Positions 1,721 through 25,965 are shown, counted from the whole stretch's first letter. The stretch is 60,482 bases of DNA, filler included, from Sphacelaria rigidula (GCA_964200075.2; 7 parts of 7 records of this genome joined end to end with filler, not necessarily neighbours in it), one strand, 5' to 3'. The notes: generated by a model not told the origin, from the letters alone. Numbers and translations are program-made.

Positions 1721-4700
1721 TCAAACTGGATCCAACCAACCACCCTCTTCCGCTATCCCTCGTGGAGTGTGACTTCCCCCTCGACGAGCCGTATCGCGGG
1801 TGGGCGGAGATGCCGCCCGCACCACAACACTACCCGCCGCGGCATACGCCGCACCAGCCTCGTCCGGCGCAGAAAACCGCCGGACAAACGAAGACGCGGA
1901 ACTCGCGCGCCCCCCACCCGCCCCCGTTACCCCTCCACCCCCGCCCGTTACTCCTCCTCCCCCCCCACCCGTTACTCCCCCGCCGTCCCCACCGCCGCCT
2001 GATGATGCGATAGCTACGACCGAGCCTTCCCCTCCGGACAGCTCATCACCGCTTGCGTGTTCGGCCCCGGAGGCGATACCGCCGCCACCGCCGCCACTCA
2101 CCAAACTCCCGCCGCTTCTTACCGTGACGATCCGACTCAACCTCAACACTTGCTGGATGGCGTGACGACACACAGGACACACGGAGGGAGGAGTGACAGC
2201 CAGGTGCTGCGCGCAGGCGTAGCAAATCCCGCTGTGTCCACACTCCATCAACACAGCGTCAGCTGGCCTTGTGCAGCAAATATAGCACGTCGCGGACGGC
2301 TGAGACGGGGTGCCCAACACCCCCGCTTCCATTTTCCTCGCCACAATATCCTCTTCACTCTCACACCCAGCCACCATTACCCCTTCCCCACCCTCTCGTA
2401 TGTCGTCATCATCTAACCCTGCTTCTGAAGACATACCTCCGTGCCAACTCAAAACCCGCGTCATGCCAGCACCTCCAGCCGTGCTCCCGCCATGCCTGCT
2501 TGCGGTGCCCAATCCACTGTGGGAGCTGTGACCGTGTCCACTGAAACCATGGCTACTCAAGCCGTGAATACTCATGTTGTGGTGGCTGTTACTGCTCAAG
2601 CCGTGGCGGCTGCTGCTGCCGCCTTGAAGCAGGAATGGCGGGAGATTCGTTGGCGTTGCCCCTTGCTCGCTGCCGAAGGCCAGCAGAATCTCCGGAGATG
2701 GCGTGGACCTCAAACTTGGATCAACGCCGCCGATGACGTCTCTCGGATCTTCCTCATCATCTCCGTCTATTGACAAACCCACCTGAACAGATATGCGCGG
2801 GGACACGCATTTTTGTACTTTAGATTGGGTGTACACACGAACCGTAAGTGAGCGCACAGCCTGCTCCTCTTCTCAACTCATCGCGGCAAACGATTAGTAG
2901 CGTTCATTTCGTTTGGTACACATGAACAATACTGTAATATTGAGAAAGGGGGGACAGATCGTGTGGAGCGCACCATGCGTCGGATGCGCTGGGTAACGCC
3001 ATAACCATCACGTCTTGCTCTGATTTTTCGCAGCTTGCCTTCTTAATTTCGCCGAGTGAGGCCCAGTTGTCATCCCTCTACGCAAGAGCACAAACAAAGG
3101 ACGCACTCGTATTTTCGAAGCGATCTCCGAAGATATCCTCACCGCTGCAGATCATAAATCGAAGTTCAGGCTCTACTTTCGCATTGATGAACACATAACC
3201 GCACACCAAAGTATACTCGGACAGACCGAAGAAACCTGCGGTTAGACTAACCTCATGGTGAGCATCATCGTCATCGCCATCAGCATCCGAGGCGTAGCTG
3301 CCGTAGCTGTTCAGGTCGTAACTGTCAGTCACGGAATGCGTCCCGGAATCCGCCTGTAACAGACCCCGATCATATCTCTCATTCTGAACCAACGGGTGTC
3401 GAGCAGAAGCAAGGTAAAAACAACGATAGAAACGGCAACAACGAAATTAACAGCGACAACGATTGCCTCGTGTTCAGAGCTACACTACGCGAGCACGACA
3501 TCTGTGGACTGCATGGGAGCAAAACATGCAACGCACCTGCTGCTAATCAGCACGCTATACTAACGGCACGTGTAGTCTCCACGAGATAAGGGCAAACGGC
3601 AAAGGTGGCGCTGGATCGAGAAATCGCCTACACGCCACGGACACCAGAAATGTGATGCCGCTCTGATATTTTCTCCCAGGGCTACAAGAGCCTCATCACT
3701 CAACAATATCTGGCGTGTTCTAAAAGCTCCGCTTTCAACCTTCACGCCGACATACGCATCGAGGTGCATGCAAATTGTTGTGTGAGTATGGTCGCCCCGG
3801 TGGCTCAGTTGGTAACCTCGAAACCTTCTGACGGTTGGGTCGTGGGTTCGAATCTCGGAGCGATCTGGGATTTTTTCTCACACAATGCTCAACAGTGGAG
3901 AGCGACCATGTCGTGGGTATACGAAATTCGACTGAATGGTCGACAAGGGAAGGAGACTGCTGGACTCCTCTCGCGATAAAAAATAAAGGCGAGCACCGCA
4001 GAATAAAGATGGAGTATTGAAAAAAAAAAAAAACGGGGCAGGCCTACCAACAGACCAACCCCGGCGGGGGGGGAGACAAAAAAAAAAAAGACGAGACCGG
4101 CGTCCAGAATAGATGGGACGACAACATATACACAACACACATACGCGTGTGCGTGTGTAATGCAACAAACGACAGGTATCCGATCTTAGCACATACCGTC
4201 ATTTAAGGACGAAGATATTCGCTTCGCTGGGTCGTCAGTATACATTTGCAATACATATCCGTGCGTACCTTGGAGGCAAGTCCATTTCTGCCGCCTTGTC
4301 TTGGAGACGCTTCCTCCTCAGACCCAGCTCTCTGCTGTCGCTCCGACGACATGGAAAATCGCCCTCGGACCTACTCGAACCGACAGACACCACGAACCCA
4401 TAGGGCAGCAACGTGGCGTGAACGTTGTGTACCTCTTCAAAATATTCTCCGAATCCCAAAACAAGAAACATAATGCAGGTGCACTACGAACCAACCGTAA
4501 CCATGGCATTGGACATGGTACGAAAAGAGTCTACAATATATACATTAAATAGATTATGGATAAATAGATAGGTCGGTATATATGGGGGTGGATGAGTCAG
4601 ATACACCGATACCGAAGATGACCATGAGGAACACCTGCGGGTGTTGAGTCTGTGCACCTCGAATATTCAATTCCTGCGGGGTGTTATTCAGGGAGTTTGT

Positions 4701-8555: not shown

Positions 8556-8655
8556 NNNNNNNNNNNNNNNNNNNNNNNNNNNNNNNNNNNNNNNNNNNNT
8601 TAATTAATTAANNNNNNNNNNNNNNNNNNNNNNNNNNNNNNNNNNNNNNNNNNNN
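8556..8655. other. Artificial contig-joining spacer (also 17211-17310, 25866-25965, 34521-34620, 43175-43274, 51829-51928)
   Basis: Same 100-bp N-run/TTAATTAATTAA/N-run block six times, separating contigs of near-identical length. Confidence 0.98.
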
Positions 8656-8737
8656 GTTGCTTCTCTCTCTGGTGATATCGTCATCGACACGCGTGTACAC
8701 CGCATTTCGTTGGGTGCACCTAGCCAGAGTTGCTTAA

Positions 8738-8841
8738 CCCTTAGACCGCGGTGCCCGTAGTCCATCTGGACCACGCGTGTACTTTTTTCAAGCGAATAAT
8801 GATGCCGATTCAGCAGGTGACCTACTCTCGCGGTCTAACGG
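8738..8841. mobile_element. 104-bp piggyBac-like MITE
   Basis: TTAA|CCCTTAGACCGCG...CGCGGTCTAACGG|GTAA; the homologous host repeat at 22915-22940 has a single empty TTAA; related units at 33710-34017. Confidence 0.8.
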
Positions 8842-9009
8842 GTAACTTCTGCTGCGGAGGTTTGGGAAGGAAGATACTTTCGCTCTGTCTTACTCTTTCG
8901 TATCTCCCCTGCAATAGAGAAATGGGACTTCAACCTCATTCTTTGTTTCAACCCCAAAAATTAGGATCGGCTGTTTACTGCTCCCAGGTGTTCACGCAGC
9001 CAGCGTGTG

Positions 9010-9826
9010 CTCCAGAGTGCAGCATGGACGCACCCCTCTGCACTACGCTAACAACACTTAGATCACAACTATAGGTATCTTTAATCACTCCGCATGTCAA
9101 GAAGATCTCCACAAGTGTTTGATCTCTCTTTCACACACACACATCAACTGGCGTCTGGCACGCTCTTGTCGTCGGGCACCTAGAGGGTCACATACATGTC
9201 GGGTAAAATCAACGATGAATATCACCCCCCAAGTTCAAATTGGATATGTTCTTTTCGCCGTAGCACCGCCCTTGCTGACATGTGTGTGACAGATAACACT
9301 AGTAGCGGTGACGGGAACATTGCCCTGTTTCTCAACGACATGTTTTTCAGCGCACAGAGGCGCGTCCTGTCCAGAAAGAGAGGCAGAGAGAAATCGATCT
9401 TTGCATTGGTGAGCTCCAGAGACAAGAAGAGACGAAATCCCTCCGCACCTCGATGTTCTTTGGGGGGCTGTGCGCAGCAACATAATAACATTCCTACCGG
9501 CACATGAGAAATTCGGTACATGCTGGTAACATCCATGGTGCCAGTCTCTCGAGCGATTGGTAATCGCCGACCGAGGACGCACAAAGGACACGGGCGAGGA
9601 GCTTCCTCCCTGTCGTTGCTTCTTTCTTTGGTGATGTCGTCATCGACACGCGTGTACACCATATTCGTTCGGTCCACCCAGCCACAATTGATTCACTGCT
9701 GCAGAGTTTTGGGGGGAAAGATGGTTTCGCTCTGTGGAACTGTTTCGCGTCATTCCTGCCCAAACGATATGCCACTTGAACCTCATTTTAGAGATTAGCC
9801 TCAAAAATAAGGATCCGCTATTATAT
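9010..9826. repeat. ~800-bp interspersed repeat family R1 (second copy 22293-23057, partial copy 8656-8890)
   Basis: Colinear similarity between contigs 2 and 3, e.g. GACGCACCCCTCTGCAC...TCGTCATCGACACGCGTGTACACC...GGATCCGCT.TTATATC. Confidence 0.85.
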
Positions 9827-9832
9827 CCTCTC

Positions 9833-11899: not shown

Positions 11900-13290
11900 T
11901 CGTGACGTGCCAGAAGATCCGGCGCTGCAAATAGCAGAACCACGGCATCAATGTCAAATATCAGCTGGGAAGCTCGATCGTTTGAAACTGGTGCAAAGTG
12001 ACCGACATCTGTCAGTCAACCGCGAAAAAGTTGCAAAAAAACTAACCACGGGAGTACGCACACTATGTCGCGGTTGCCAACGCCGAAAGAACCGTCCACA
12101 ACCGGCCAGAATATGCCGATGGGACACGTTCCGGTAGGACGGCTATAAGAAAGAATGTCGGCAGACCTCATCAAATGCAAAACAACTTCGATGTCAAAAG
12201 CTGGGGTGCTCTGTAGATAGGTATTGTTCATAATGGACCACCTCACAGGGTATGCCTTGCTAATTCCGGTACCAAATAAACAAACCACGTCGATAGCCAA
12301 AACGTTTATCGATAGATTTTTACCACATTTGGCATCCCGGAAAAGCTGCGTTCAGATCAAAGAGTCGATTCGGAAACGAGCTAATATATGCACGGCAACA
12401 AGAGCTGGGTTTCAATGAAAGTCGCATGACACCGTTACTCCTGCAAGGTAATTCAAAGTCGGAACAAATCCACTCCACCATGCATGCAATGTTAGCTATG
12501 CATGTGTCAATTGGAAACGAAAATTGGACATTGATGCTTCCGTACATATAAATGGCGTACAACACATCCTATCACAATACAGTACAGGAGATACCATTTT
12601 CTTTTTGTTCGGAAGACAACCCGGATTACCAATCGACATCATACTCGGCATACCTGAGCAGAGCCAAGCCGCAACACCTGACGAATTTTCCAAAGAAACA
12701 CGGGAAAACCAACAGTTTGCATTTGACATTGCGAGACAAGCTCTACGAGAAAGAGCGAACAAGCAAGAAAACGGGAACAAAGTAAAAACGTTACCAGTGT
12801 TCAAACCCGGTCAAAAGGTACTCATGTACCGACCATACCAGGATTTAGAAGGACCGAACCCGCAACTACAATTACCATGGAGAGGACCTTTCATGATAGC
12901 CAAGAGACGATCGCTGGTTATATACAGAATCAAAGTAGGCGACCACTCTAAAGAAATGTCAGTACATCTCGCTCATTTGAAGGAATATCACCCGAGAGAA
13001 ACAGCGCCAGCGCCAGACTTTGACAAGTGGAGCAAGTTGTTCCTATGCAGACGGATACCTCTACCGGAGATGGACCAAACAGACGAAACATTGCCTATAG
13101 TAGAACGTTACACGTCAAAAATGTGATAGGTCACGCTCCAGGCCCAGGTCGGAGAAGTCTGCATAACTATAAATATCGATTGAGATTTAAAAGCTACGGC
13201 CCAGCAGCTGACCTAGCCTATCGAGCTGACGAAACTCCACAAGGTAGACATCTCATCGATATATACCGTCATGACAATGGGTTAACAGAG
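11900..13290 (+). pseudogene. Gypsy integrase plus chromodomain, with frameshifts and stops
   Basis: CRGCQRRK (HHCC end), MSADL...IMDHLTGYA, FGIPEKLRSDQ, MAYNTSYH, LFGRQP, QLPWRGPF (GPY/F motif), VHLAHLKEY, then YKYRLRFKSYGPAADL chromodomain-like. Confidence 0.88.
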
Positions 13291-16681: not shown

Positions 16682-17040
16682 GGGGGGGGGGGGGCGTACT
16701 CATTTGTCTTGCGCATCCAAGTAATTCCCTTAGCTGCTGTAATATGCACTGTTCCCAACTCCTTCACCAAAAGGGGGGACGTACTCATTTGTTTCGAGCA
16801 TCCAAGTAATTCCCCTGGCTGCTGTCATCTGTACTGTTCCCAACTCCTTCACCAACTTCACTGCATCCAAGTATTCTCTGAGCTGTTGCAATCTGTACTG
16901 TTCCCAACTTGTTCACTAATTTTATTGCATCCAAATATTCTTTTATCTGCTGCCATTTGCACCGTATCCGCATCAAAATATTATTTTAGCTGCTGCCAGC
17001 TGCACTGTTTCCAATTTCTTCGGCAACTTCACCCCTTGCT
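16682..17040 (+). repeat. Minisatellite of about five units (core ~57 bp)
   Basis: CATCCAAGTAATTCCCT..GCTGCTGT.AT.TG.ACTGTTCCCAACTCCTTCACCAA units with progressive decay. Confidence 0.8.
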
Positions 17041-17559
17041 CTGCCATGTCTAATGCTAGTATCAGGTCATCAAAGACTACCTCGAGTAGAGAGGGTGTAA
17101 CGTATATCCTGGTGCGAGTAACGTACATCCTGGTGCGACTCGTTGCAAAATAATAGGGTTGCCAGAAAAATGAGAACGTATTTTGAAATGAGAATCAACC
17201 GCTCCCCGGGNNNNNNNNNNNNNNNNNNNNNNNNNNNNNNNNNNNNNNNNNNNNTTAATTAATTAANNNNNNNNNNNNNNNNNNNNNNNNNNNNNNNNNN
17301 NNNNNNNNNNTCGTTGCTCTACTCTGCTGACTGCCGTCTGCAGAGACGTCGCGCACCGTATCAATATGTAAGTACCCAATTTCGGAACAGCTATGGAAGC
17401 AAAACAGTTAGGGGCGCGAATCGGGGGGGGGGTGTTAGCCCCCGAATTATGCCAGGCTGTTCGAACGGAATTTTATCGATCATATACAACTCATCCTCGT
17501 TTCTTTTCTTCCATGTGGATACACTTGATCAAACACATCATTAGAACGAGCAAATCGTG

Positions 17560-19000
17560 CGTTTAAGCGACGTCCTCCGTGTTCAGGCGCTAGACACACG
17601 TCCACACCCCTGACACACACTGCAAGATGACGTCTTTGCTTCTCAACTCTTGTAGCGTTCGCTGAAACTCTGCAAAATAAATACTTTTCGCCGCCTGATG
17701 TGCCGAGCGTGGGACGTTTCCGGAAAGCGAAGCCATCAGAACTGCTGTGTTGTTTTGTCTTGGCTGTAGTAGTCTGTGCTCCACACACCACTGCAAAAGT
17801 ATCTTGTTTTGAGTGTACTAGCCTGTACTCCATTTAATAGCGTCATGGTTCGGGCAGTTCTTCAAAAAGTTCTGCTCGTTTTTTAAAAAATATTCCGAAA
17901 AAATGGGAGTGTTTCCTGTCACAGAAATCTAATGCCGAATCTGGATTAGCCTGAGACAACAACCAATTTGAAAATTGGAAGAAGAGGACATTATTGTGTA
18001 AACGACCCTCATGCGATGCACTCGAAGCATATCCCAATAACCTGCAATTGCTTCCTTTCTCAAGTCGTCAAAATGGTCCTAACATGAAGGAATGCGCGCG
18101 GAGTTGTGCTCTGCACTGGGCATCTGATGTGCACGCTTTCATGCGTGTAAGTGCGGAGATAAATTGCTCAAACGGTTGTGATTTTAAACTTTTGATGTCG
18201 CTAGCGCGATTTGTTCGAAGGACGGAAGCGCGTGGTTGTACATGGGATACATACTGCTGTCGCAGAAGTCTGCGCATATTTGTCCTCTGCATCTCAATAC
18301 AAGACCAAAATTTTGCAGCCTCGCAATACAGGTGTATCAACATCACTATGTAGCGATAAGTTGATACGTTGGAAAGCAGATTCAATTTGTATGGATATCC
18401 TGGCATATTCCATAACTCTTGTTGACAGGTGCCGTCACAAAATATATGCACATGCGGGAAGGCAATGTGGCGTATCACCAGGGGACAAAACCCATCTTGT
18501 AGTATCGCAAAGTGTTCATGCCATACAAACAGGTGGATGCACAGATAGAGCATCCAGCTACTGCAGCAATTCGCATATCGCCGAACTCCGCGTCTGCGCA
18601 CAGGGTGAATAGCCCCAGTCTCATGATCCAAACGTTATTTCAGAAGGGGCTAGCGATGACGTTGGGAACCGTACCGGGTATTTTACCCCCGTAATAATGA
18701 GGCATATGCCATAGCAGCACTCGTGGACTGGTCACATTACAGCATCTTATGACTTGCGGCAAGGCAAACTGCACGCACCATCCGGCCGCAAATGCCGTTC
18801 GGCTGCTCGCCGTCTCTTCATTTGATACATGCTTTCACACACCGAGCACGCAGCTAGCACAGAAGTGCTCGCATTTATGCCTCAGGTTGTGCGCGCAGCA
18901 ATAACAGCGGCAGCGATGTCATTCAAACGTTGAAGCAAAGGAGGATTTCACTTTAATCTGGAAACGATAAAAAAATATGCACTCCTTGTACTTCGAGAAA
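17560..19000 (+). pseudogene. Academ/DUF6589-like DDE transposase remnant (approximate limits)
   Basis: One frame with stops gives, in order, GLA*DNNQF (17943-17969), CISIQDQNFAA (~18290), LYGYPGIFH (PGIFH 18399-18413), VFYPRNNEAYAIAAL (~18680); the order matches the DN / DQ / GxFH / F....G...YA motifs of Academ-type transposases (recognised by eye). Confidence 0.5.
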
Positions 19001-19459
19001 ATCTCATGCCACCACAACTGCAACATGGCCGCGAATAACGGACTTCCCCGTGTTGTGGGCGCTAAATTGCCTCCCAGGGTTTTTCAGGAACCCGTTGTTT
19101 TTTGCACACACCACTTGTTCAAACGAGGGGCCCATGTTTCGTCATGAAAAAAAACCCCTAATATCACAGCAGGCCGCGCAACTCTGTCCTCTACACCTCT
19201 ACGCAGCGAAAAAGGCTGCAGCCCTATCCTCTGCGCACAATATCCGCAGAGGCATCAGAAAGCGACAATCCAAACGTCAACCAGTCGTGTCGTATATTCA
19301 TGCAGGACATGCAGAACACACAACAAACGAAACACTCTGTGCGAAGGATTCTCCTTCACAAATCGGCATCACTTGCAGTTTAAAAATCGTGTGAATTATG
19401 CCGATTCCCCGACTCACTATCCCCGGATCGAAGAAAAAGTCGAGACTCCACTACATACT

Positions 19460-21430
19460 CCTAACTTCGCGACCGACACCAGCGGACGTTGCTTATCTCA
19501 GCCAAAACACGGTCTCCACGCGCGATGTCTAGAACAAGCTCGCGAGTCATACGCGCTACGGGTTGCTGTTCGCGAATGGCAGCCTTTGCTTGCCTCGCCC
19601 GCTTCACCGCCCCCTTGCCCGCCGCTCTAATTTCGTCACCCATGGCACACTCTTTCATGATTTAACTCGACTCGGCGGACTTGTATAACCCTGCGCGCAC
19701 AAAATCCAAAAAAGCTGTGTCCATCGATCTCGTGCATGTATCGTACTTGGGAAAAAACGACTCCACTAACTGCTGATGGACGGGGACAAAATAAAATCGC
19801 TCGCAAACCATCTCGTACACGGCGGGGAATTCCCACACAGACGGAGGAATGAGGAAGTGCCCTAGTCTGCGTTTTCATCAACCGCCGCTTCACCGTACGC
19901 GGACTCCGCGTACAGTTCTAGACCACTCCTGAGACACTCATCCCGACTAACAAGAGAGAACAGCCCAAGCGTCAACTCATATTTCGTCCTGGTGCCGGCC
20001 TTCTCCTTCAAGCACTTCGTGAGCTGCTCTCGGTACCCCCTTTCTCTCTGCGAACGCTGGGGGTCAACAGACATCTGCGGCCAAAAAACATGCAGAAAAG
20101 CACGCGTATACTCGGCTCCTACTGCCTGCTCTACAGCTCTCCCCCCCGTGGCCCATTCGTTTACGTGAAAGGATTGGCACCCAATGCGCGCCAGGCTCAA
20201 GGGTGGCTCCTGGTGCATATCCATCCATTTGCTCCACCGCATCTTTGCCTCGGCAAAAAATCCTTTGCTCTCACTGAAGTTCATCATAAACTGCTCTGCC
20301 TGCACCACGAGGAAAACCCAACGACCAATTTCACACGGACAGCAGTTAGGGCGTGTCGACAGCAGCATCAGTACCAGCATCTGAAGCGCGACAACCCCAC
20401 TCGCATCAACAGCCAGAAAAGGCAGCGAGGAACAGCATTCGCGTTCAGGCTAGTATAACCCGTGCGCTTTGAAACCAGCACGGGAAATTTAGAAACGAGT
20501 GCAACATATGAATACGATCTTGTTTGGTATGTTGGGTAAGAGAGAGAACGACATATCCAACTCTTGCAGCATCTACCGATGCAACAAACAGCCTGTTCTA
20601 ACTTCCACCGCCCATCCACACGCAAGTGTTGTATGAAGGGCACGGCCACCTACCTCTGCCAGCCTGAGGGTGGTTCGCACGATGTGCAGCAGCTGAGGGA
20701 AGAATGCTCCGTGGTCTCGCCGCAGTGTTTCCAGCCTTTCCAAGAAGAGGAGAGACAACTCCGGGATCTCCACAAGGCGACGGCCGGGCAAGAGCTGCTG
20801 CCAAACCCCTCCACTGCCCTTCAAAAAGAACCCCCCCTCGCCGCGAATCCAATTGTACGCCCAGTCCAACAACAGCTCTCCAAGCTGCGCCGCAAACATG
20901 ACTTGAACACGGATTACGAAGCATGCAGGCTGATTGCGCCCAATAATTTCGAAAAGGGGTCGCCTTCAGGTGTCTAGGGGCGTACGTGCAAAAGAGCCAT
21001 GCAACCTGCTCCCATCGTTCCACCAGAAGCTTCCTACCTTCGCAGACAACCATCCGCCGCGTCTGGGCAGGTCGGACGAACTTCTTGTTCCACTTTGGTG
21101 AGGGATGGGGGGATTCCTCGTGGATCAAATTCTGCCAACGCTCGAAATCACCGTTGTCCGTGTTTGAGCGACTTGTGTTGTACCAAACCATGCCAAGAAG
21201 GGAGCAAACATGATCCACGTCCTACTCATGCCACGACCCCTTTCCAAGTGGATCCATGAAATATTTGTTGGTTACGCCTGCCGTGATGGAGAGGTGGAGG
21301 ATGTGGAGTACACACCCCAGACGCTCCGCGTGAATCGTAGTGGCTTCACTTTCAGTCGTCTCTCCAGACTCCATGGAGGTGCTCGTGAGCCCGCGAAGCG
21401 GCTGCCGTTCGGGTGTACTTTGGGACATGG
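19460..21430 (-). pseudogene. hAT-like DDE transposase remnant with a spliceosomal intron (20653-20381)
   Basis: LGCVLHILHL (CxxH, 21314-21291), FVRPAQTRRMVV (TRW-like), RFYFVPVHQQLVESFF (C-terminal catalytic-E-like, ~19790-19752); phase-0 intron GAG|GTAGGT...TTCAG|ATG; stops and one frameshift. Confidence 0.68.
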
Positions 21431-21804
21431 TGTGCAGGTCGCTGATTACGGGCTGCTCTCGGCAGGGTGTGGTTACCGGGCATCAGGGCACTTCTCTGTA
21501 CCGTATGCCCAGAAAATATGCCTTGCGGCTTTCGCTCCGCTGACTCTTTTCGTTTTTTTTCAAACTCTGTGTTTTTGGCCCCCAAAGAGTCGATAGATCA
21601 AAGGTGTTTAGCCCTCAAGAGGCAGCGGAGGAGGGGTGCACCGAAGGCCTTCTGCAGAAGGCCTTCTACCATTCTGCGGTTATATTCCGACCGACCGGAC
21701 GGATCCTTCGTTTCTGACTGGCCAGGTAGATTTTTCCATCTAGAAGAGCCAGGACACTTTCTGGGCAAAATTTCCTATTTGTTTTGTGCGCGATTCGCAC
21801 CCCT

Positions 21805-22198
21805 AACAGTTCGGTTTGAAAACTACGTCCACATGATTGAAATGAATTTTGTTACCTGAGGGAAAGTGGCCGCTTTTGGCCCGGCGAGACCTGCGCAGAT
21901 ACTGTCGAACAGCACTACCAAACTTTGTTGGCATTGACATGTGCGAATCAGTACAGACCGGAACAGAAATCAGTTCAACGTTCTTACTAGAAAGCAACGA
22001 GCATGAAACGATTTGAACGTGGGAAAGGGTGGATTTTCGCACAGGAGAAACTCTCTGTTTCCCCATGAGTGTCACATGCACTCGCAAAAACTCTGTCGTC
22101 GTTCTTTCATATCTGGCGAGGGGACGTGGAAGCCACAGTTCCTGAGGTAACAAGAGTCATTTCAATCCTGTGGACGTAGTTTTCAAAACCGAACTGTT
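21805..22198. mobile_element. ~390-bp MITE inserted in the right arm of the larger element's inverted repeat
   Basis: ~55-bp imperfect TIR AACAGTTCGGTTT(T)GAAAACTACGTCCACA(T/G)GATTGAAATGA...TTGTTACCT.AGG at 21805-21861 vs 22141-22198. Confidence 0.8.
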
Positions 22199-22292
22199 TT
22201 GCTTCCATAGCTGTTCCGAAATTGGGTACTTACATATTGATACGGTGCGCGACGTCTCTGCAGACGGCAGTCAGCAGAGTAGAGCAACGAAA

Positions 22293-23057
22293 GCTCCGGA
22301 TTGCAGCGTTGACGCACCCCTCTGCACCACGCTCAAACAGTTAGGCCAACCACATATTATAGGTATTTTTTCCCACTCCGCATGCCAACAAGGTCTCCAC
22401 AAGTCTTTGATCTCTCTCAAACACACACCTCAACTGGCCTGTGGCACGCTGTTGTGCTCGGACGCCTAGATGGTCACAGATCGGGTAAAATCAACGATGA
22501 ATAACACCCCCCACGTTCAAATTAGATCTGTTCTTAGTGCCGCAGCACCGCCCTTGTTGGCATGTGTGTGACAGAGAACAGTAGTAGTAGCGGTGACGGG
22601 ATCATTGCCCTGTTTTTCAGCGCACAGAGGCGCGTCCTGTCCAAAAAGAGAGGCAGAGAGAAGTCGATCTTCGCATTGGTGAGGTCCACTGGCAAGGAGA
22701 GACGAAATCTCTCCGCAGCTCCATGTCCTGGCACATGGAAAATTGGGTACATGCTGGTAACATCAATGACGCCAGTCTCTCGAGCGATTGGTATTCGCCG
22801 AGCGAGGACACACAAAGAACACGGGCAAGGAGCTTCCTCGCTGTCGTTGCTTCTCTCTCTGGTGATATCGTCATCGACACGCGTGTACACCGCATTCGTT
22901 GGGTGCACCTAGCCACAGCTGCTTAACTGCTGCAGAGTTCTGGGGAGAAAGATGGTTTCGCTCTGTGTAACTGTTTCTCGTCGTCCCTGCAAAAAAGATA
23001 TGCCGCTTGAACCTTATTTTGAGATCGACCCCATTTTTCAGGATCCGCTGTTATATC
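22293..23057. repeat. Interspersed repeat family R1, second copy
   Basis: Colinear with 9010-9826; 22846-22914 nearly identical to 8656-8725. Confidence 0.85.
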
Positions 23058-25965
23058 GGTATCGGAGCGTAGGAAACTGATGAGGGAGCCTCCAATTACA
23101 TAGAACGATGTTTTCGTGAGATTGAGAGTGTAGTGGATACGATTGAGAAGGAAAAGGTCAACTAGTGATTTAATCGTTTCAGTTCCGAAATATCCCGCCG
23201 CGGGGTCCTCACCGAAGCAGCGGGCTAACTCACGGTTATTAACCTGTGAAGTACCGGCGCAGAGATGTTCCTGTGAAGTCAGTATTGCGCCAAAAGGAAA
23301 ACAAGTTTTTTTCGGAACAAAATCTTGACCGTTTTGCTCTCTAGTGCGTACTGCTGCAGCGCAGAGCACCAGATGAAGCGATTTTGAACTGTTGACTGTG
23401 GTTTGCACAGCCTATGAGCGATGTTTCAGCGCCTCGCAGCGGCTGCAGCGCGCTTAGGACCGTGCGCCATGAAGTGCGCAGCTATACAGACTGTATGCCG
23501 ATCGGTGCACTACAGATGGTCATGGTCCGGAAAGGGCTGCAGTACAGACCGGTGACAGTTTGCTATCGCATCGACCGCCCAGTCGCTCAACATATCTAAG
23601 TTTATGCATCTGCGCATGCATATATGCATTTGCCTGTAGTGCGACACTGGTAGACCTAAAGAAATGTACATACACAACAATAGGTACTCGATTTGACTTG
23701 GTTTCAGACTAAAGAAAGTTCTGAGAAAAATCATGATTTGGGGCAGGTGAGCAGTGGTGAGCAGCAGAACCAGGTCGTCTAGAACGTGTTTTGGTCCAAA
23801 ATCGGCTCAAAGGCGTCGATTTGAGCTCTCGCAACGCACGCTTCAGCTAAGAAACTGCATCCCCCTTGCCCGAGAGTTCTCGGTATGCCTTGGTAGATGT
23901 TAGTGCTAGGGTTAGCGTTAGAGTTGGTGGCATCTCCATGGTACCACCCATTGTTCACGTACATTTCTGCAAGTTCCCTCTGTGAAGTACTTGTGCAGGG
24001 ATGCATCCTTGTCACAAGGACATCTCTGTCACAAGGACGTTCCCGCGCCGGTACTTCACACAGGTGCATCCTTTGAGGGAACTCCCTGTTACGGGTTGCA
24101 TGACCACAAGGATTTGTCACCCCCCTGCGCTTGTCGAGCACAGCTGACCCACAGTGAGGACGTTTGCTCACGTGTGTGCCTTGTTCAATTCGCCAACGGC
24201 TCATTGTACGATCTTGTTTTTGCTGCTTGAAGAGGCTTATGTGGTTCGGGATCGACACCCCGTGATAAAGAGCCAGTGTGGACGACTTTCGATCGCCAGG
24301 ACACGCGCCACAGGTACCAGATGACACTCAAACCTGAAAAGTAATGTATCGCTGCACCTTTTTCGTGCACTGCAAAAGAAAGAGCGTGATGATATGCCTT
24401 GCCGCCTGAGGAACTCGGCAAAAGTGGTGAAAAAAGTGACATGATACATGTACATGAATATGATATGTATCAATATGGAATATCGATACGCTCGATAATT
24501 TGCCTCTTCTTTGTCACAATAGCTCAATTTCTCGAAACCGTTGTCACAGAGACGTAGGGGGGTGGTACATGGACGATTTTAACCAGAGGTCCAGAAAAAG
24601 GTTGCGCTCTTTCACATGAGCAGTCACCGCAGTGACCAACTTCCTCCTGTGTGTTTGGCGTTTCCGCAGTGTCAACAAGTGCACTTGCGACGATAGCTGT
24701 AGAGCGGTTGCACGATGTGCAAATGGATGCAGTATCTATTCGTAAAATAAAAGGCGGCAGAGTAGCCCCTGGTGCCTCGTGGGTTTGGTGATATGATTCA
24801 GCGGGGGTGTTCACCAACGGCAACACACGGGTGGCGTGGCGGAGTAGATATGAGGTCACGATCAATGCAAAGCTGCAGATAACAGTAGAAAACAGCTGTC
24901 CTTCGGAGTATGAGGAGATGATACTGTCGCTTCGCCTTCCCTGCATGTTTGATGAATGTTGGATTTGTTTTCCCCTCCATCCATTGGTTTGAACTTTCTA
25001 ATTGTTGCGATCTCAGGGGTTTTGTCTCCTTGGTGACATACAAATATATAGTTATGGCATCCAAAACTTGAAACTTGACGCATGCTGCCGACGTTTCCTG
25101 TTATTGGTAGTGAAAAACGTTGAAGACAAGAGCGCGCATTTGTTTTTTGTGCATGTTCGAGGTTTGACACGTTTTCTTTTCTAATGGATATGCAGAGTCG
25201 AGGAATGCGCCCATTCGATCGAAACACACGGAGAAGTGGCCGTAGAAATGAAAACAGTATAACCAATACCACACCCAGCCCGCTGTGATCAACCACCTCT
25301 TGCACGATGACGAGAGATATTCGTGAGACAGCTTCATCACCGCATGCCACCGCTGCTATGACGTCAATGTGCACACTACCCGCTGTTGTACATCATGTGT
25401 CCACTGCTGTCCACCGGACACTACCGTAGGTTGCTCGAGATACCACACCGTCAGGAGCGATTTCCAAAGCTCGATTACTTTCTCTCGACGAGATGGTTGC
25501 AACGCTGCCCCGTTCAGCGCTGGCATCGCTTCTGGTGAGGAGTAAGAGAGCTTTGAAAATCTTTCTAGGGGATGTGGTATATTATCACATCATATTTATT
25601 GCAGCCGTCGTACTACTGGTAAACTAGCATTTCCATCCCACTGTACTGTTGAATGCGGCAGTACACGCCATGTACTGTCTGTACTGCACGTCATCCAAAC
25701 AAATCATTTTCGGCAGCCGGTGGGTGCAGCTTGGCATGTGGATCCTTCTGTTCAATGAGGCAGTGCAGACAGTAGGGTACTGCCTGGTGTTGTCTGTATT
25801 GCACGTTGTCCACATATCTCACGTTGTACGCATCATTTTTACTACAGCCGTGCGTACTACTGTTGNNNNNNNNNNNNNNNNNNNNNNNNNNNNNNNNNNN
25901 NNNNNNNNNTTAATTAATTAANNNNNNNNNNNNNNNNNNNNNNNNNNNNNNNNNNNNNNNNNNNN

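What the first reader, a model, noticed from the sequence alone, without database searches (positions are those of the whole stretch)
17311..22290. Inverted-repeat element holding two convergent transposase-like genes of different superfamilies
Seen: 99 bp at the contig start is a perfect reverse complement of 22192-22290 and weaker similarity continues inward (17407-17470 vs about 21730-21807). Inside, a + strand decayed frame with Academ/DUF6589-like motifs meets tail-to-tail a - strand decayed, intron-containing frame with hAT-like motifs. Established: described Academ elements pair the transposase with an XPG-type nuclease or a RecQ-type helicase, and hAT elements have one gene and short TIRs. 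Inference: a two-DDE-gene element, a Pack-type capture of two transposase fragments, or a chance nest. Both genes look 5'-short. The perfect outer arms contrast with the decayed interior; the 99-bp length ending exactly at the contig edge may reflect assembler k-mer overlap, so the true repeat may be longer.
Basis: partly seen in the sequence, partly recalled or inferred. Interest (0 to 1): 0.75.

Follow-up and report, generated by a model that had tools for sequence, protein, structure and literature searches.

The report
Decayed hAT-like gene between inverted repeats
A 5-kb stretch of an alga's DNA bounded by a 100-base inverted repeat holds one broken transposase-related gene, not two, and is most likely the worn remains of a jumping-gene copy.

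Summary
The inverted repeat is real: 102 nt at 99% identity, 99 nt exact. Position 17311 is the first base of one of seven equal pieces joined by N spacers, so the left flank is not in the window.

The plus-strand "Academ/DUF6589" gene is not supported.

Read-depth shows a single-copy interior (17953-21695). The flanks have about 100-fold higher summed depth. A 394-nt foldback is nested in the right arm.

Best reading: a relic of a long-TIR, non-autonomous DNA transposon, or a chance nest, carrying one hAT-derived pseudogene. It is ordinary, with a mildly novel gene family.

The parts
17311..17412 (+). Left arm of the inverted repeat. The first base follows the N spacer, so the outer flank is not in the window.
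   Evidence: 102 nt, 99% reverse-complementary to 22189-22290. The exact part is 99 nt. Summed word depth in run X1 is 2,448, against about 25 for the interior.
17403..17423 (+). Inner continuation of the arm. On the right side it lies beyond the nested foldback.
   Evidence: 19 of 21 bases match the reverse complement of 21791-21811.
17413..17882 (.). Left subterminal stretch. It is mid-repetitive in the source genome and unlike the right subterminal stretch.
   Evidence: Depth 2,448-3,020 in X1, 2,208-4,255 in X3 and 976-1,323 in X4. It has no match elsewhere in the window and no subterminal tandem repeats.
17883..17980 (.). Piece of a much more abundant repeat that ends at 17980.
   Evidence: The bin 17883-18168 has depth 44,346 in X1. 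Joints 17980->23103 and 17980->23109, and loose ends at 17980, are seen in other contigs.
17981..19460 (.). Single-copy to low-copy stretch with no detectable coding homology. This is where the claimed 'Academ-like' gene lies.
   Evidence: Unitigs 17953-18658 and 18642-21695 sit at depth 27 and 25 in X1; bins 18455-19026 are about 4-fold higher. Pfam found nothing. A word-based homologue search found nothing. GC is 43-53%. Period-3 signal is 0.2-1.7.
19461..21428 (-). Pseudogene of a repeated, hAT-related protein family. ATG at 21428. CxxH (GCVLH) at 21317-21303. TAG at 21224-21222 where relatives have W. QTRR at 21068-21048 where relatives have ETRW. Frameshift near 20917-20910. TAG at 19864-19862 where relatives have K. 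Frameshift between 19847 and 19829. VHQQLVESFF at 19781-19752. TAA at 19664-19662. Stop at 19463-19461.
   Evidence: HMMER against 1.84 billion proteins gave 63 hits at E<=1e-3. All 106 tblastn HSPs of the 69 stored proteins fall in 19467-21440. The gene is colinear with the family alignment.
20300..20653 (-). GT..AG intron of the pseudogene, 354 nt. Its position is shared with relatives.
   Evidence: Sequence read. Seven relatives in alignment A6 end in '..EV' plus junk at this point, and P0005 reads through the same intron.
21601..21804 (.). Right subterminal stretch, mid-repetitive. It contains a 24-nt perfect palindrome at 21643-21666.
   Evidence: Depth 2,700 in X1, 2,833 in X3 and 1,361 in X4.
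21805..22198 (.). Nested foldback (MITE-like) element that splits the right arm. It is flanked by AACAGTT/AACTGTT, or read more narrowly by CAG/CTG.
   Evidence: Arms 21805-21870 and 22132-22198 are 88% complementary. The DNA fold is -88.1 kcal/mol, z -8.4, and 0 of 100 shuffles fold as well. Depth is 4,047 in X1.
22189..22290 (-). Right arm of the inverted repeat.
   Evidence: A different, far more abundant repeat begins at 22293.

Best explanation
There is one gene here, not two.

The minus strand 21428..19461 is a dead copy of a repeated gene family. The named relatives of this family are all brown-algal. Its protein corresponds to the part of a hAT transposase that runs from the CxxH motif through the large all-helical insertion domain to the C-terminal Glu/hAT region. 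It lacks the BED finger and the two catalytic Asp. The copy is disabled by three stop codons and two frameshifts, and it has lost the conserved Trp of the RW motif. It cannot make a working protein.

The gene lies in a single-copy island of about 3.7 kb. On both sides are sequences with roughly 100-fold higher summed read depth. Their outermost 102 (+21) nt form an almost perfect inverted repeat. The right arm was later split by a 394-nt foldback insertion.

I infer that the arms are the terminal inverted repeats of a long-TIR, non-autonomous DNA transposon copy. In such families the copies share ends and subterminal DNA but differ inside. This copy would have carried the already broken, 5'-short hAT-derived gene as cargo or remnant, and it could have moved only with a transposase supplied in trans. 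It is now an immobile relic.

Shown: the repeat, the pseudogene, its family, and the depth pattern. Inferred: that arms and gene form one mobile unit, and which superfamily moved it.
For: Inverted repeat: 102 nt at 99%, E 3.8e-46.

Pseudogene and family: 63 hits at E<=1e-3, 34 at E<=1e-10. The gene is colinear over about 530 codons. Disabling changes fall at positions that are conserved in relatives.

Relatives: all 4 of the 4 named ones are brown-algal 'unnamed protein products'.

hAT-likeness from motifs:
- CxxH is present in 4 of 6 members that cover the site.
- ETRW is present in most members that cover it.
- HQQ..ES is present in 11 of the 12 stored proteins that reach it.
- The spacing is H-78-W-about 316-E. 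Papers give Hermes H268 and W319, and Muta1 as H307-W401-E419 (PMC4763223 and PMC5225508, passages and section 11).

Depth in run X1: interior 24.7-27, left flank 2,448-3,020, right flank 2,700-4,047. The two flanks are similar in depth yet unlike each other in sequence beyond 123 nt.

Age contrast: three nonsense changes imply about 4% divergence and about 8.7 expected differences between the arms. One is seen, P(<=1) = 0.0016. So the arms are younger than the decay, as when a defective copy is mobilised.

Literature context: MULEs have TIRs >100 bp, and their non-autonomous copies share TIRs and subtermini but have heterogeneous interiors (PMC5225508, passages). Ectocarpus DNA transposons often carry pseudogenised or DDE-less transposase fragments (PMC12477816, passages and Supplementary file 1 parts 2-3).
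Against: - The left flank is missing, so no target-site duplication can be read.
- The exact arm length of 99 nt equals a common assembler k. The outer end may therefore be set by the assembler and not by biology.
- No joint linking the left and right repeated flanks appears among the 15 joints shown; 103 more were not shown.
- The interior is single copy at >=90% identity, so co-mobility of arms and gene is not shown.
- Summed word depth is not a copy number, as the tool itself warns.
- Pfam does not find the hAT C-terminal domain, and PDB profile searches find no Hermes at E<=10.
- The N-terminal-half model is poor, pLDDT 33-62 over residues 1-127, and Hermes is not among its top 50 matches.
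- hAT elements have short TIRs, 21-23 bp in the Ectocarpus hAT families (PMC12477816, Supplementary file 1). The arms do not fit a hAT element.
Confidence: 0.5

Rival explanations
1. Chance nest. The two arms are independent or locally duplicated copies of a short dispersed repeat that happen to lie inverted around an old pseudogene in repeat-rich DNA. Arms and gene were never one mobile unit.
For: The surrounding DNA is a mosaic of repeats. The flanks have about 100-fold the interior's summed depth, 17883-17980 about 1,800-fold, and 22459-23030 about 40,000-fold. The right arm abuts another repeat at 22293. A foldback is nested in it. The interior is single copy, and no left-to-right joint appears among the 15 shown. 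The arms are much younger than the gene's decay.
Against: Two independent copies would have to stop being alike at the same inner point, about 123 nt, and be 99% identical, while most contigs laid on this 8.5-kb stretch are 90-95% alike. The left and right flanks have nearly equal summed depth, 2,448-3,020 against 2,700.
Confidence: 0.3
2. One element carries two convergent transposase-type genes, Academ-like on the plus strand and hAT-like on the minus strand.
For: Two tail-to-tail spliced genes are common in Ectocarpus DNA transposons such as Harbinger, PiggyBac-1, EnSpm-1/2 and KDZ-2 (PMC12477816, Supplementary file 1 part 2). In 2017 the Academ RNase H domain had no Pfam counterpart (PMC5751038, passage), so a Pfam blank does not exclude Academ.
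Against: No Pfam family was found in any of six read-through frames. That includes DUF6589, XPG and helicase families. There is no homologue for the plus-frame read-through of 18205-19383, and nothing above 25 bits in a lenient tblastn. Period-3 signal and GC are low over the left half. The left half differs in depth from the gene, about 4-fold higher in 18455-19026.
Confidence: 0.05
3. Assembly artefact. The first 99 nt of the piece are a de Bruijn-graph overlap or a mis-join, and the left arm does not exist at this place in the genome.
For: The exact match is 99 nt, starts at the first base of the piece, and equals a common k. Piece starts behave like contig starts, with 2 of 7 beginning in repeats. 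A joint '22149->22256, opposite strands' is seen at about single-copy depth in three DNA runs.
Against: Similarity continues for 3 + 21 nt beyond the 99 exact bases, on the far side of the nested foldback. A pure k-mer overlap would not produce that. An overlap k-mer at a contig end is normally supported by reads that adjoin it.
Confidence: 0.1

Closest known systems
hAT superfamily transposases (Hermes; Ectocarpus hAT-1_Ec32 and hAT-2_Ec32)
   Same: The family has CxxH, RW and a C-terminal Glu-containing motif in the same order, with a long spacer between W and E. The gene is spliced. Hermes residues 320-609 are the best structural match to a family member (PMC4763223, passages).
   Different: No BED finger and no Asp-Asp half are seen. 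Pfam does not recognise the hAT C-terminal domain. The flanking arms are 102 nt or more, against 21-23 bp TIRs in Ectocarpus hATs (PMC12477816, Supplementary file 1). The 8-bp TSD cannot be checked.
Mutator-like elements and Pack-MULEs
   Same: The inverted ends are longer than 100 bp. The flanks are shared by many copies while the interior is unique. The element carries a gene fragment (PMC5225508, passages). MuDR-1_Ec32 of Ectocarpus has about 117-bp TIRs (PMC12477816, Supplementary file 1 part 3).
   Different: No MULE transposase domain was found. The motif spacing is unlike Muta1, where W lies 18 residues before E. There are no subterminal tandem repeats. The TSD is unknown.
DDE-less transposase-fragment genes in Ectocarpus transposons (EnSpm-1/2 protein-1; the P-1_Ec32 gene)
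   Same: These are spliced genes related to a transposase but lacking the DDE part, carried inside TIR elements that are often pseudogenised (PMC12477816, Supplementary file 1 part 2).
   Different: They belong to other superfamilies by their termini and TSDs. I could not compare sequences, because no library sequences were available to the tools.
Academ (AcademX / AcademH)
   Same: Nothing was demonstrated.
   Different: There is no DUF6589, XPG nuclease or helicase match in any frame. The TSD of 3-4 or 9-10 bp (PMC10045372, passage) cannot be checked.

Membership tests
hAT superfamily | 8-bp target-site duplication | not testable with these tools
   The left flank lies outside the window, no genome is held, and the one read-laying run did not list ends at 17311.
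hAT superfamily | Short terminal inverted repeats (21-23 bp in the Ectocarpus hAT families, PMC12477816 Supplementary file 1) | tested here: not met
   The arms are 102 nt plus a 21-nt continuation.
hAT superfamily | Two catalytic Asp on an RNase H-like sheet upstream of CxxH | tested here: not met
   Family conservation starts about 8 residues before the Cys, and the upstream leaders are unconserved. The N-terminal model has no strands of 3 or more residues and low confidence. In the window the upstream DNA is repeat sequence. Missed upstream exons in intact relatives cannot be excluded.
hAT superfamily | CxxH motif and the conserved Trp (Hermes H268, W319) | tested here: met
   GCVLH lies at 21317-21303. 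4 of 6 members covering the site have C-x-x-H. ETRW is present in relatives but is QTRR in the window copy. Both motifs are shared with MULEs (PMC5225508), so they are not specific to hAT.
hAT superfamily | C-terminal hAT domain with the catalytic Glu | tested here: inconclusive
   The motif IHQQL.ES..S is invariant in alignment A3 and present in the window at 19781-19752. Pfam gives no hAT C-terminal family at E<=10. The resemblance to the hAT 'SER.FS' signature is from my recall.
hAT superfamily | Fold like the Hermes insertion domain plus C-terminal region | tested here: inconclusive
hAT superfamily | N-terminal BED zinc finger | tested here: not met
   No Pfam family was found in the six read-through frames or in 25 + 10 relatives.
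   There is no DUF6589 hit in 22 ORFs or six read-through frames, and no homologue of the plus-frame read-through. RepBase Academ profiles are not available here, so this is a weak negative.
Academ | Partner XPG-type nuclease or helicase | tested here: not met
   No such Pfam family appears in any frame of 17311-22290 at E<=10.
Mutator-like / Pack-MULE | TIRs longer than 100 bp | tested here: met
   The arms are 102 nt at 99%, plus 21 nt.
Mutator-like / Pack-MULE | 8-10 bp TSD | not testable with these tools
   The left flank is absent.
Mutator-like / Pack-MULE | MULE transposase domain in an autonomous member | tested here: not met
   There is no MULE or Transposase_mut hit in the window frames or in relatives.
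Mutator-like / Pack-MULE | Copies share TIRs and subtermini but have heterogeneous interiors | tested here: inconclusive
   The depth pattern fits, with flanks about 100-fold above the interior.

The most novel reading that the evidence does not exclude
The minus-strand gene represents an undescribed, brown-alga-wide family of 'half transposases'. These would be hAT-derived proteins that keep the CxxH-insertion-domain-Glu/hAT part but naturally start just before CxxH, with no BED finger and no Asp-Asp sheet. In one lineage the protein is fused to a Ulp1 (C48) protease (P0061). The family would ride in long-TIR elements as an accessory or regulatory protein and not as the catalytic transposase. 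That would make a new variant of DNA-transposon gene content.
Probability: 0.15. Interest if true: 0.55.

Novelty: new member of a known kind. Interest (0 to 1): 0.3.

Why it matters
As found, it matters little. It is a dead transposon-type relic in repeat-rich algal DNA, and the striking claim of two transposases of different superfamilies in one element does not hold.

The useful by-product is a repeated gene family in brown algae that Pfam and PDB sequence searches miss. Motif order and a modest structural match tie it to hAT transposases. Brown-algal DNA transposons are poorly classified; in Ectocarpus, 51 'DNA/Unknown' families are listed (PMC12477816, Table 1 passage). A profile of this family could help annotate them. 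It could also test whether DDE-less transposase derivatives are a regular part of these elements.

Tried and rejected
Genome and earlier findings
- No whole genome is held for the window.
- Earlier findings of this scan: nothing by place, sequence or words.
- Rfam: no match in the whole window.

Homology searches that found nothing
- The search for homologous proteins with the 195-aa ORF, lengths 'longer': none. Relatives of 354-434 aa do exist, so this word-based tool misses them. Its blank for the left half is therefore weak.
- Profile search with A2: only P0061 itself.
- ESM Atlas: no usable hit for the ORF or for P0068.
- PDB by sequence: phmmer and three profiles all gave 0 hits at E<=10.
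- The search for related loci with A1 failed because the alignment was too gappy. With A3 and A6 there were no relatives in JGI metagenome contigs, IMG/VR or prokaryote genome contigs.
- A 22-nt arm word had 0 matches in metagenome contigs.
- Lenient tblastn of all 69 stored proteins on the left half and on 21400-25865: nothing above 25 bits.
- Pfam on read-through frames of 22291-25865 and of piece 2: nothing relevant.

Structure searches
- Foldseek of the P0068 model against PDB: no match at E<=0.001.

Expression
- No RNA holder is listed for the stretch.
- Run X6, whose kind is only guessed to be RNA, has five small contigs over 19417-20838 at depth 2-4 and none bridging the intron. This says nothing firm about transcription.

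Readings considered and dropped
- The gene as a MULE transposase: the W-to-E spacing is wrong and no domain is found.
- A viral origin: no IMG/VR relative.
- 17981-23108 as one insertion into a high-copy repeat, suggested by the joints 17980->23103/23109 with sides of only 19-25 nt. Position 23109 is joined to many different upstream places (table 5c), so this is a repeat boundary and not an empty site.

Literature
- The Academ paper PMC7165386 is not held. Academ features are taken from a passage of PMC10045372.
- Supplementary files 2-5 of PMC12477816 were only word-searched.


Full report
WHAT THE WINDOW IS. The 60,482-base window is seven pieces of 8,554-8,555 bases joined by N44-TTAATTAATTAA-N44 spacers. 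Position 17311 is the first base of the third piece (17311-25865), so what lies to its left is not available. No whole genome is held. Two of the seven piece starts match repeats elsewhere in the window from their very first base: 51 exact bases for piece 2 and 99 for piece 3. None of the seven piece ends does. This fits pieces that begin at contig starts and are cut at a fixed length, but I cannot prove it.

THE INVERTED REPEAT. 17311-17412 is the reverse complement of 22189-22290 over 102 nt at 99%, with blastn E 3.8e-46. The exact part is 99 nt and the first mismatch is at 17410. Further inward the right arm is interrupted by a 394-nt foldback. Its arms, 21805-21870 and 22132-22198, are 88% complementary. 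It folds at -88.1 kcal/mol, z -8.4, and none of 100 shuffles folds as well. It is flanked by AACAGTT/AACTGTT, or read more narrowly by CAG/CTG. Beyond the foldback the arm similarity resumes for 21 nt, 17403-17423 against 21811-21791, with 19 of 21 matching. It then ends.

WHERE THE ARM ENDS. Three bases beyond the right arm, at 22293, a different repeat begins. It is 80% identical to 9009-9827 in piece 2. Two readings of the outer end stay open. The arm may truly end at 22290. Alternatively, the 99 exact bases may be an assembler k-mer overlap, in which case the repeat runs further out. Each reading needs one coincidence.

READ DEPTH IN PUBLIC RUNS. Eleven runs were listed, nine of which hold part of the stretch, from three studies. 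The labels are a coded organism and 'algae metagenome'. I laid Logan contigs of four runs on 17311-25865.
- Interior: in X1 it is covered by two unitigs, 17953-18658 (depth 27.2, no differences) and 18642-21695 (depth 24.7, five differences). Bins from 19599 to 21314 are flat at 24.7.
- Flanks: 2,448-3,020 on the left (17311-17882) and 2,700-4,047 on the right (21601-22172).
- 17883-18168: 44,346.
- 22459-23030: about one million.
- X3 and X4 show the same pattern.
Summed word depth is not a copy number, as the tool warns. Even so, the contrast is clear: a single-copy island of about 3.7 kb lies between much more abundant sequences. The left and right flanks have similar depth although they are unlike each other beyond the 123-nt arms. 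No joint linking left and right flanks is among the 15 joints shown; 103 more were not shown.

THE MINUS-STRAND GENE. Pfam found nothing relevant in 22 ORFs or in the six frames read through with X at stops. My one exhaustive HMMER job used the minus-strand read-through of 19865-20965. Against 1.84 billion representatives it gave 63 proteins at E<=1e-3, 34 at E<=1e-10 and 5 at E<=1e-30. Two of these are the window's own ORFs. All four relatives that carry names are brown-algal 'unnamed protein products', from Ascophyllum nodosum, Ectocarpus sp. CCAP 1310/34 (two) and Pylaiella littoralis. Ten more that I looked up have no name.

All 106 tblastn HSPs of the 69 stored proteins fall in 19467-21440 on the minus strand, and none falls elsewhere in the window. 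Aligned with the family, the window copy is colinear from about 21428 to 19461. It carries these defects and features (coordinates):
- TAG at 21224-21222, where relatives have Trp.
- A frameshift near 20917-20910.
- A 354-nt GT..AG intron at 20653-20300. Its position is shared: seven relatives in A6 break off in '..EV' there, and P0005 reads through it.
- TAG at 19864-19862, where relatives have Lys.
- A frameshift between 19847 and 19829.
- TAA at 19664-19662.
It is a pseudogene. The family is multi-copy, intron-bearing and often decayed. That is what transposon-borne genes look like.

IS IT hAT-LIKE? By sequence statistics it is not. Pfam finds no hAT family in the window frames or in 25 + 10 relatives. 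Three family profiles find no PDB chain at E<=10.

By motifs it is.
- C-x-x-H: present in 4 of 6 members that cover the site. In the window it is GCVLH at 21317-21303.
- ETRW: present in relatives; QTRR in the window.
- IHQQL.ES..S: invariant in alignment A3, present in 11 of 69 stored sequences, which is 11 of the 12 that reach it. In the window it lies at 19781-19752.
- Spacing: these occur in this order as H-78-W-about 316-E.
Papers give the CxxH His and the Trp as Hermes H268 and W319, and as shared with MULEs. Muta1 has D214, D283, H307, W401, E419 (PMC4763223 passages; PMC5225508 passages and section 11). The long W-to-E spacer fits hAT and not MULE. My likening of the last motif to the hAT 'SER.FS' signature, and the Hermes numbers D180/D248/E572 and insertion domain 265-552, are recalled and not from a call.

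WHAT IS MISSING FROM THE GENE. No BED finger and no Asp-Asp region are seen. Family conservation begins about 8 residues before the Cys, and the upstream 'leaders' are unconserved. The N-terminal-half model (P0022, 34 sequences) has pLDDT 33-62 over residues 1-127 and no strands of 3 or more residues. Hermes is not in its 50 listed matches. There are two possibilities. Intact members may have upstream exons that ORF callers missed, in which case the window copy is 5'-truncated where repeats begin at about 21601. Or the family may truly start there. P0061 is an intron-less 831-aa ORF that starts 10 residues before the Cys and ends in a Ulp1 protease domain (Peptidase_C48, E 1.1e-14), which suggests the second possibility.

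THE CLAIMED PLUS-STRAND GENE. Nothing supports it.
- Pfam has no hit, including DUF6589, XPG or helicase families.
- The read-through of 18205-19383 has no homologue in the word-based search.
- Nothing exceeds 25 bits in a lenient tblastn.
- GC is 43-53% there, against 52-56% over the gene.
- Period-3 signal is 0.2-1.7, against about 2-2.6 over most of the gene.
Two caveats apply. The word-based tool also missed true relatives of the other gene (against 28). And in 2017 the Academ catalytic domain had no Pfam counterpart (PMC5751038, passage). The claim is unsupported, not disproved.

PUTTING IT TOGETHER. Three nonsense changes imply about 4% divergence since the gene was intact. At that rate the two arms should differ at about 8.7 sites. 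They differ at one, P(<=1) = 0.0016. So the arms are younger than the decay, or they are kept alike by conversion.

The pattern has four parts: long near-identical ends, subterminal DNA shared with many other copies, a unique interior, and a broken transposase fragment inside. This is what non-autonomous long-TIR elements show. MULEs have TIRs >100 bp, and their derivatives share TIRs and subtermini but have heterogeneous interiors (PMC5225508, passages). It also matches brown-algal transposons as curated in Ectocarpus: MuDR-1_Ec32 has about 117-bp TIRs, many elements carry pseudogenised or DDE-less transposase fragments, and nested insertions are common (PMC12477816, passages and Supplementary file 1 parts 2-3).

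I therefore favour a dead, non-autonomous long-TIR transposon copy carrying one hAT-derived pseudogene (0.5). The alternatives are a chance nest of repeats around an old pseudogene (0.3), an assembly artefact at the piece start (0.1), and the two-transposase element (0.05).

VERDICT. The headline interpretation is not supported. The object is an ordinary kind of thing: a new member of a known kind. The gene family itself is unannotated and might repay a proper study.

Noticed in passing
window 8556-8655, 17211-17310 and four more spacers: The window is not one contiguous sequence. It is seven pieces of 8,554-8,555 nt joined by N44-TTAATTAATTAA-N44 spacers.
   Followed up: yes
window 22293-23057 and 9009-9827; also 8656-8738: A repeat of about 800 nt with enormous summed read depth, about 1,000,000 against 25 for single-copy DNA in X1. 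An 80% identical copy lies in piece 2, which itself starts inside this repeat with 51 exact bases. Pfam finds nothing in any frame.
   Followed up: partly
window 23104-23109: A sharp repeat boundary. In other contigs, sequence from 23109 on is joined to many different upstream places (22586, 22882, 22897, 17980), often with the letters AACAG between (tables 5 and 5c).
   Followed up: no
window 19381-19542: A joint skipping 160 nt is seen at about single-copy depth in three DNA runs (30, 40 and 23), with sides of 28-30 nt. It is possibly an allele or a close paralogue with a deletion just downstream of the pseudogene.
   Followed up: no
window 22149 / 22256: A joint between opposite strands at about single-copy depth in three DNA runs (44, 27 and 13). 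It is unexplained. It may reflect another arrangement of the foldback and arm sequences.
   Followed up: no
window 12452-13123 (+): A 224-aa open frame with a weak match to the C-terminal domain of a retroelement integrase (Integrase_p58_C, E 0.0067, below the cut-off). It is probably a decayed LTR-retrotransposon remnant.
   Followed up: no
window 1724-2872 (-): A 383-aa open frame with a RING finger (zf-C3HC4_3, E 4.6e-12). It is the only clear cellular-type domain found among the 95 long ORFs scanned outside the finding.
   Followed up: no
window 16688-17043: Diverged tandem-like repeats with units of 43-85 nt, just before the end of piece 2.
   Followed up: no
P0061 (831 aa, unnamed Logan/ENA record): A distant, intron-less member of the gene family is fused to a C-terminal Ulp1 protease domain (Peptidase_C48, E 1.1e-14).
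   Followed up: partly
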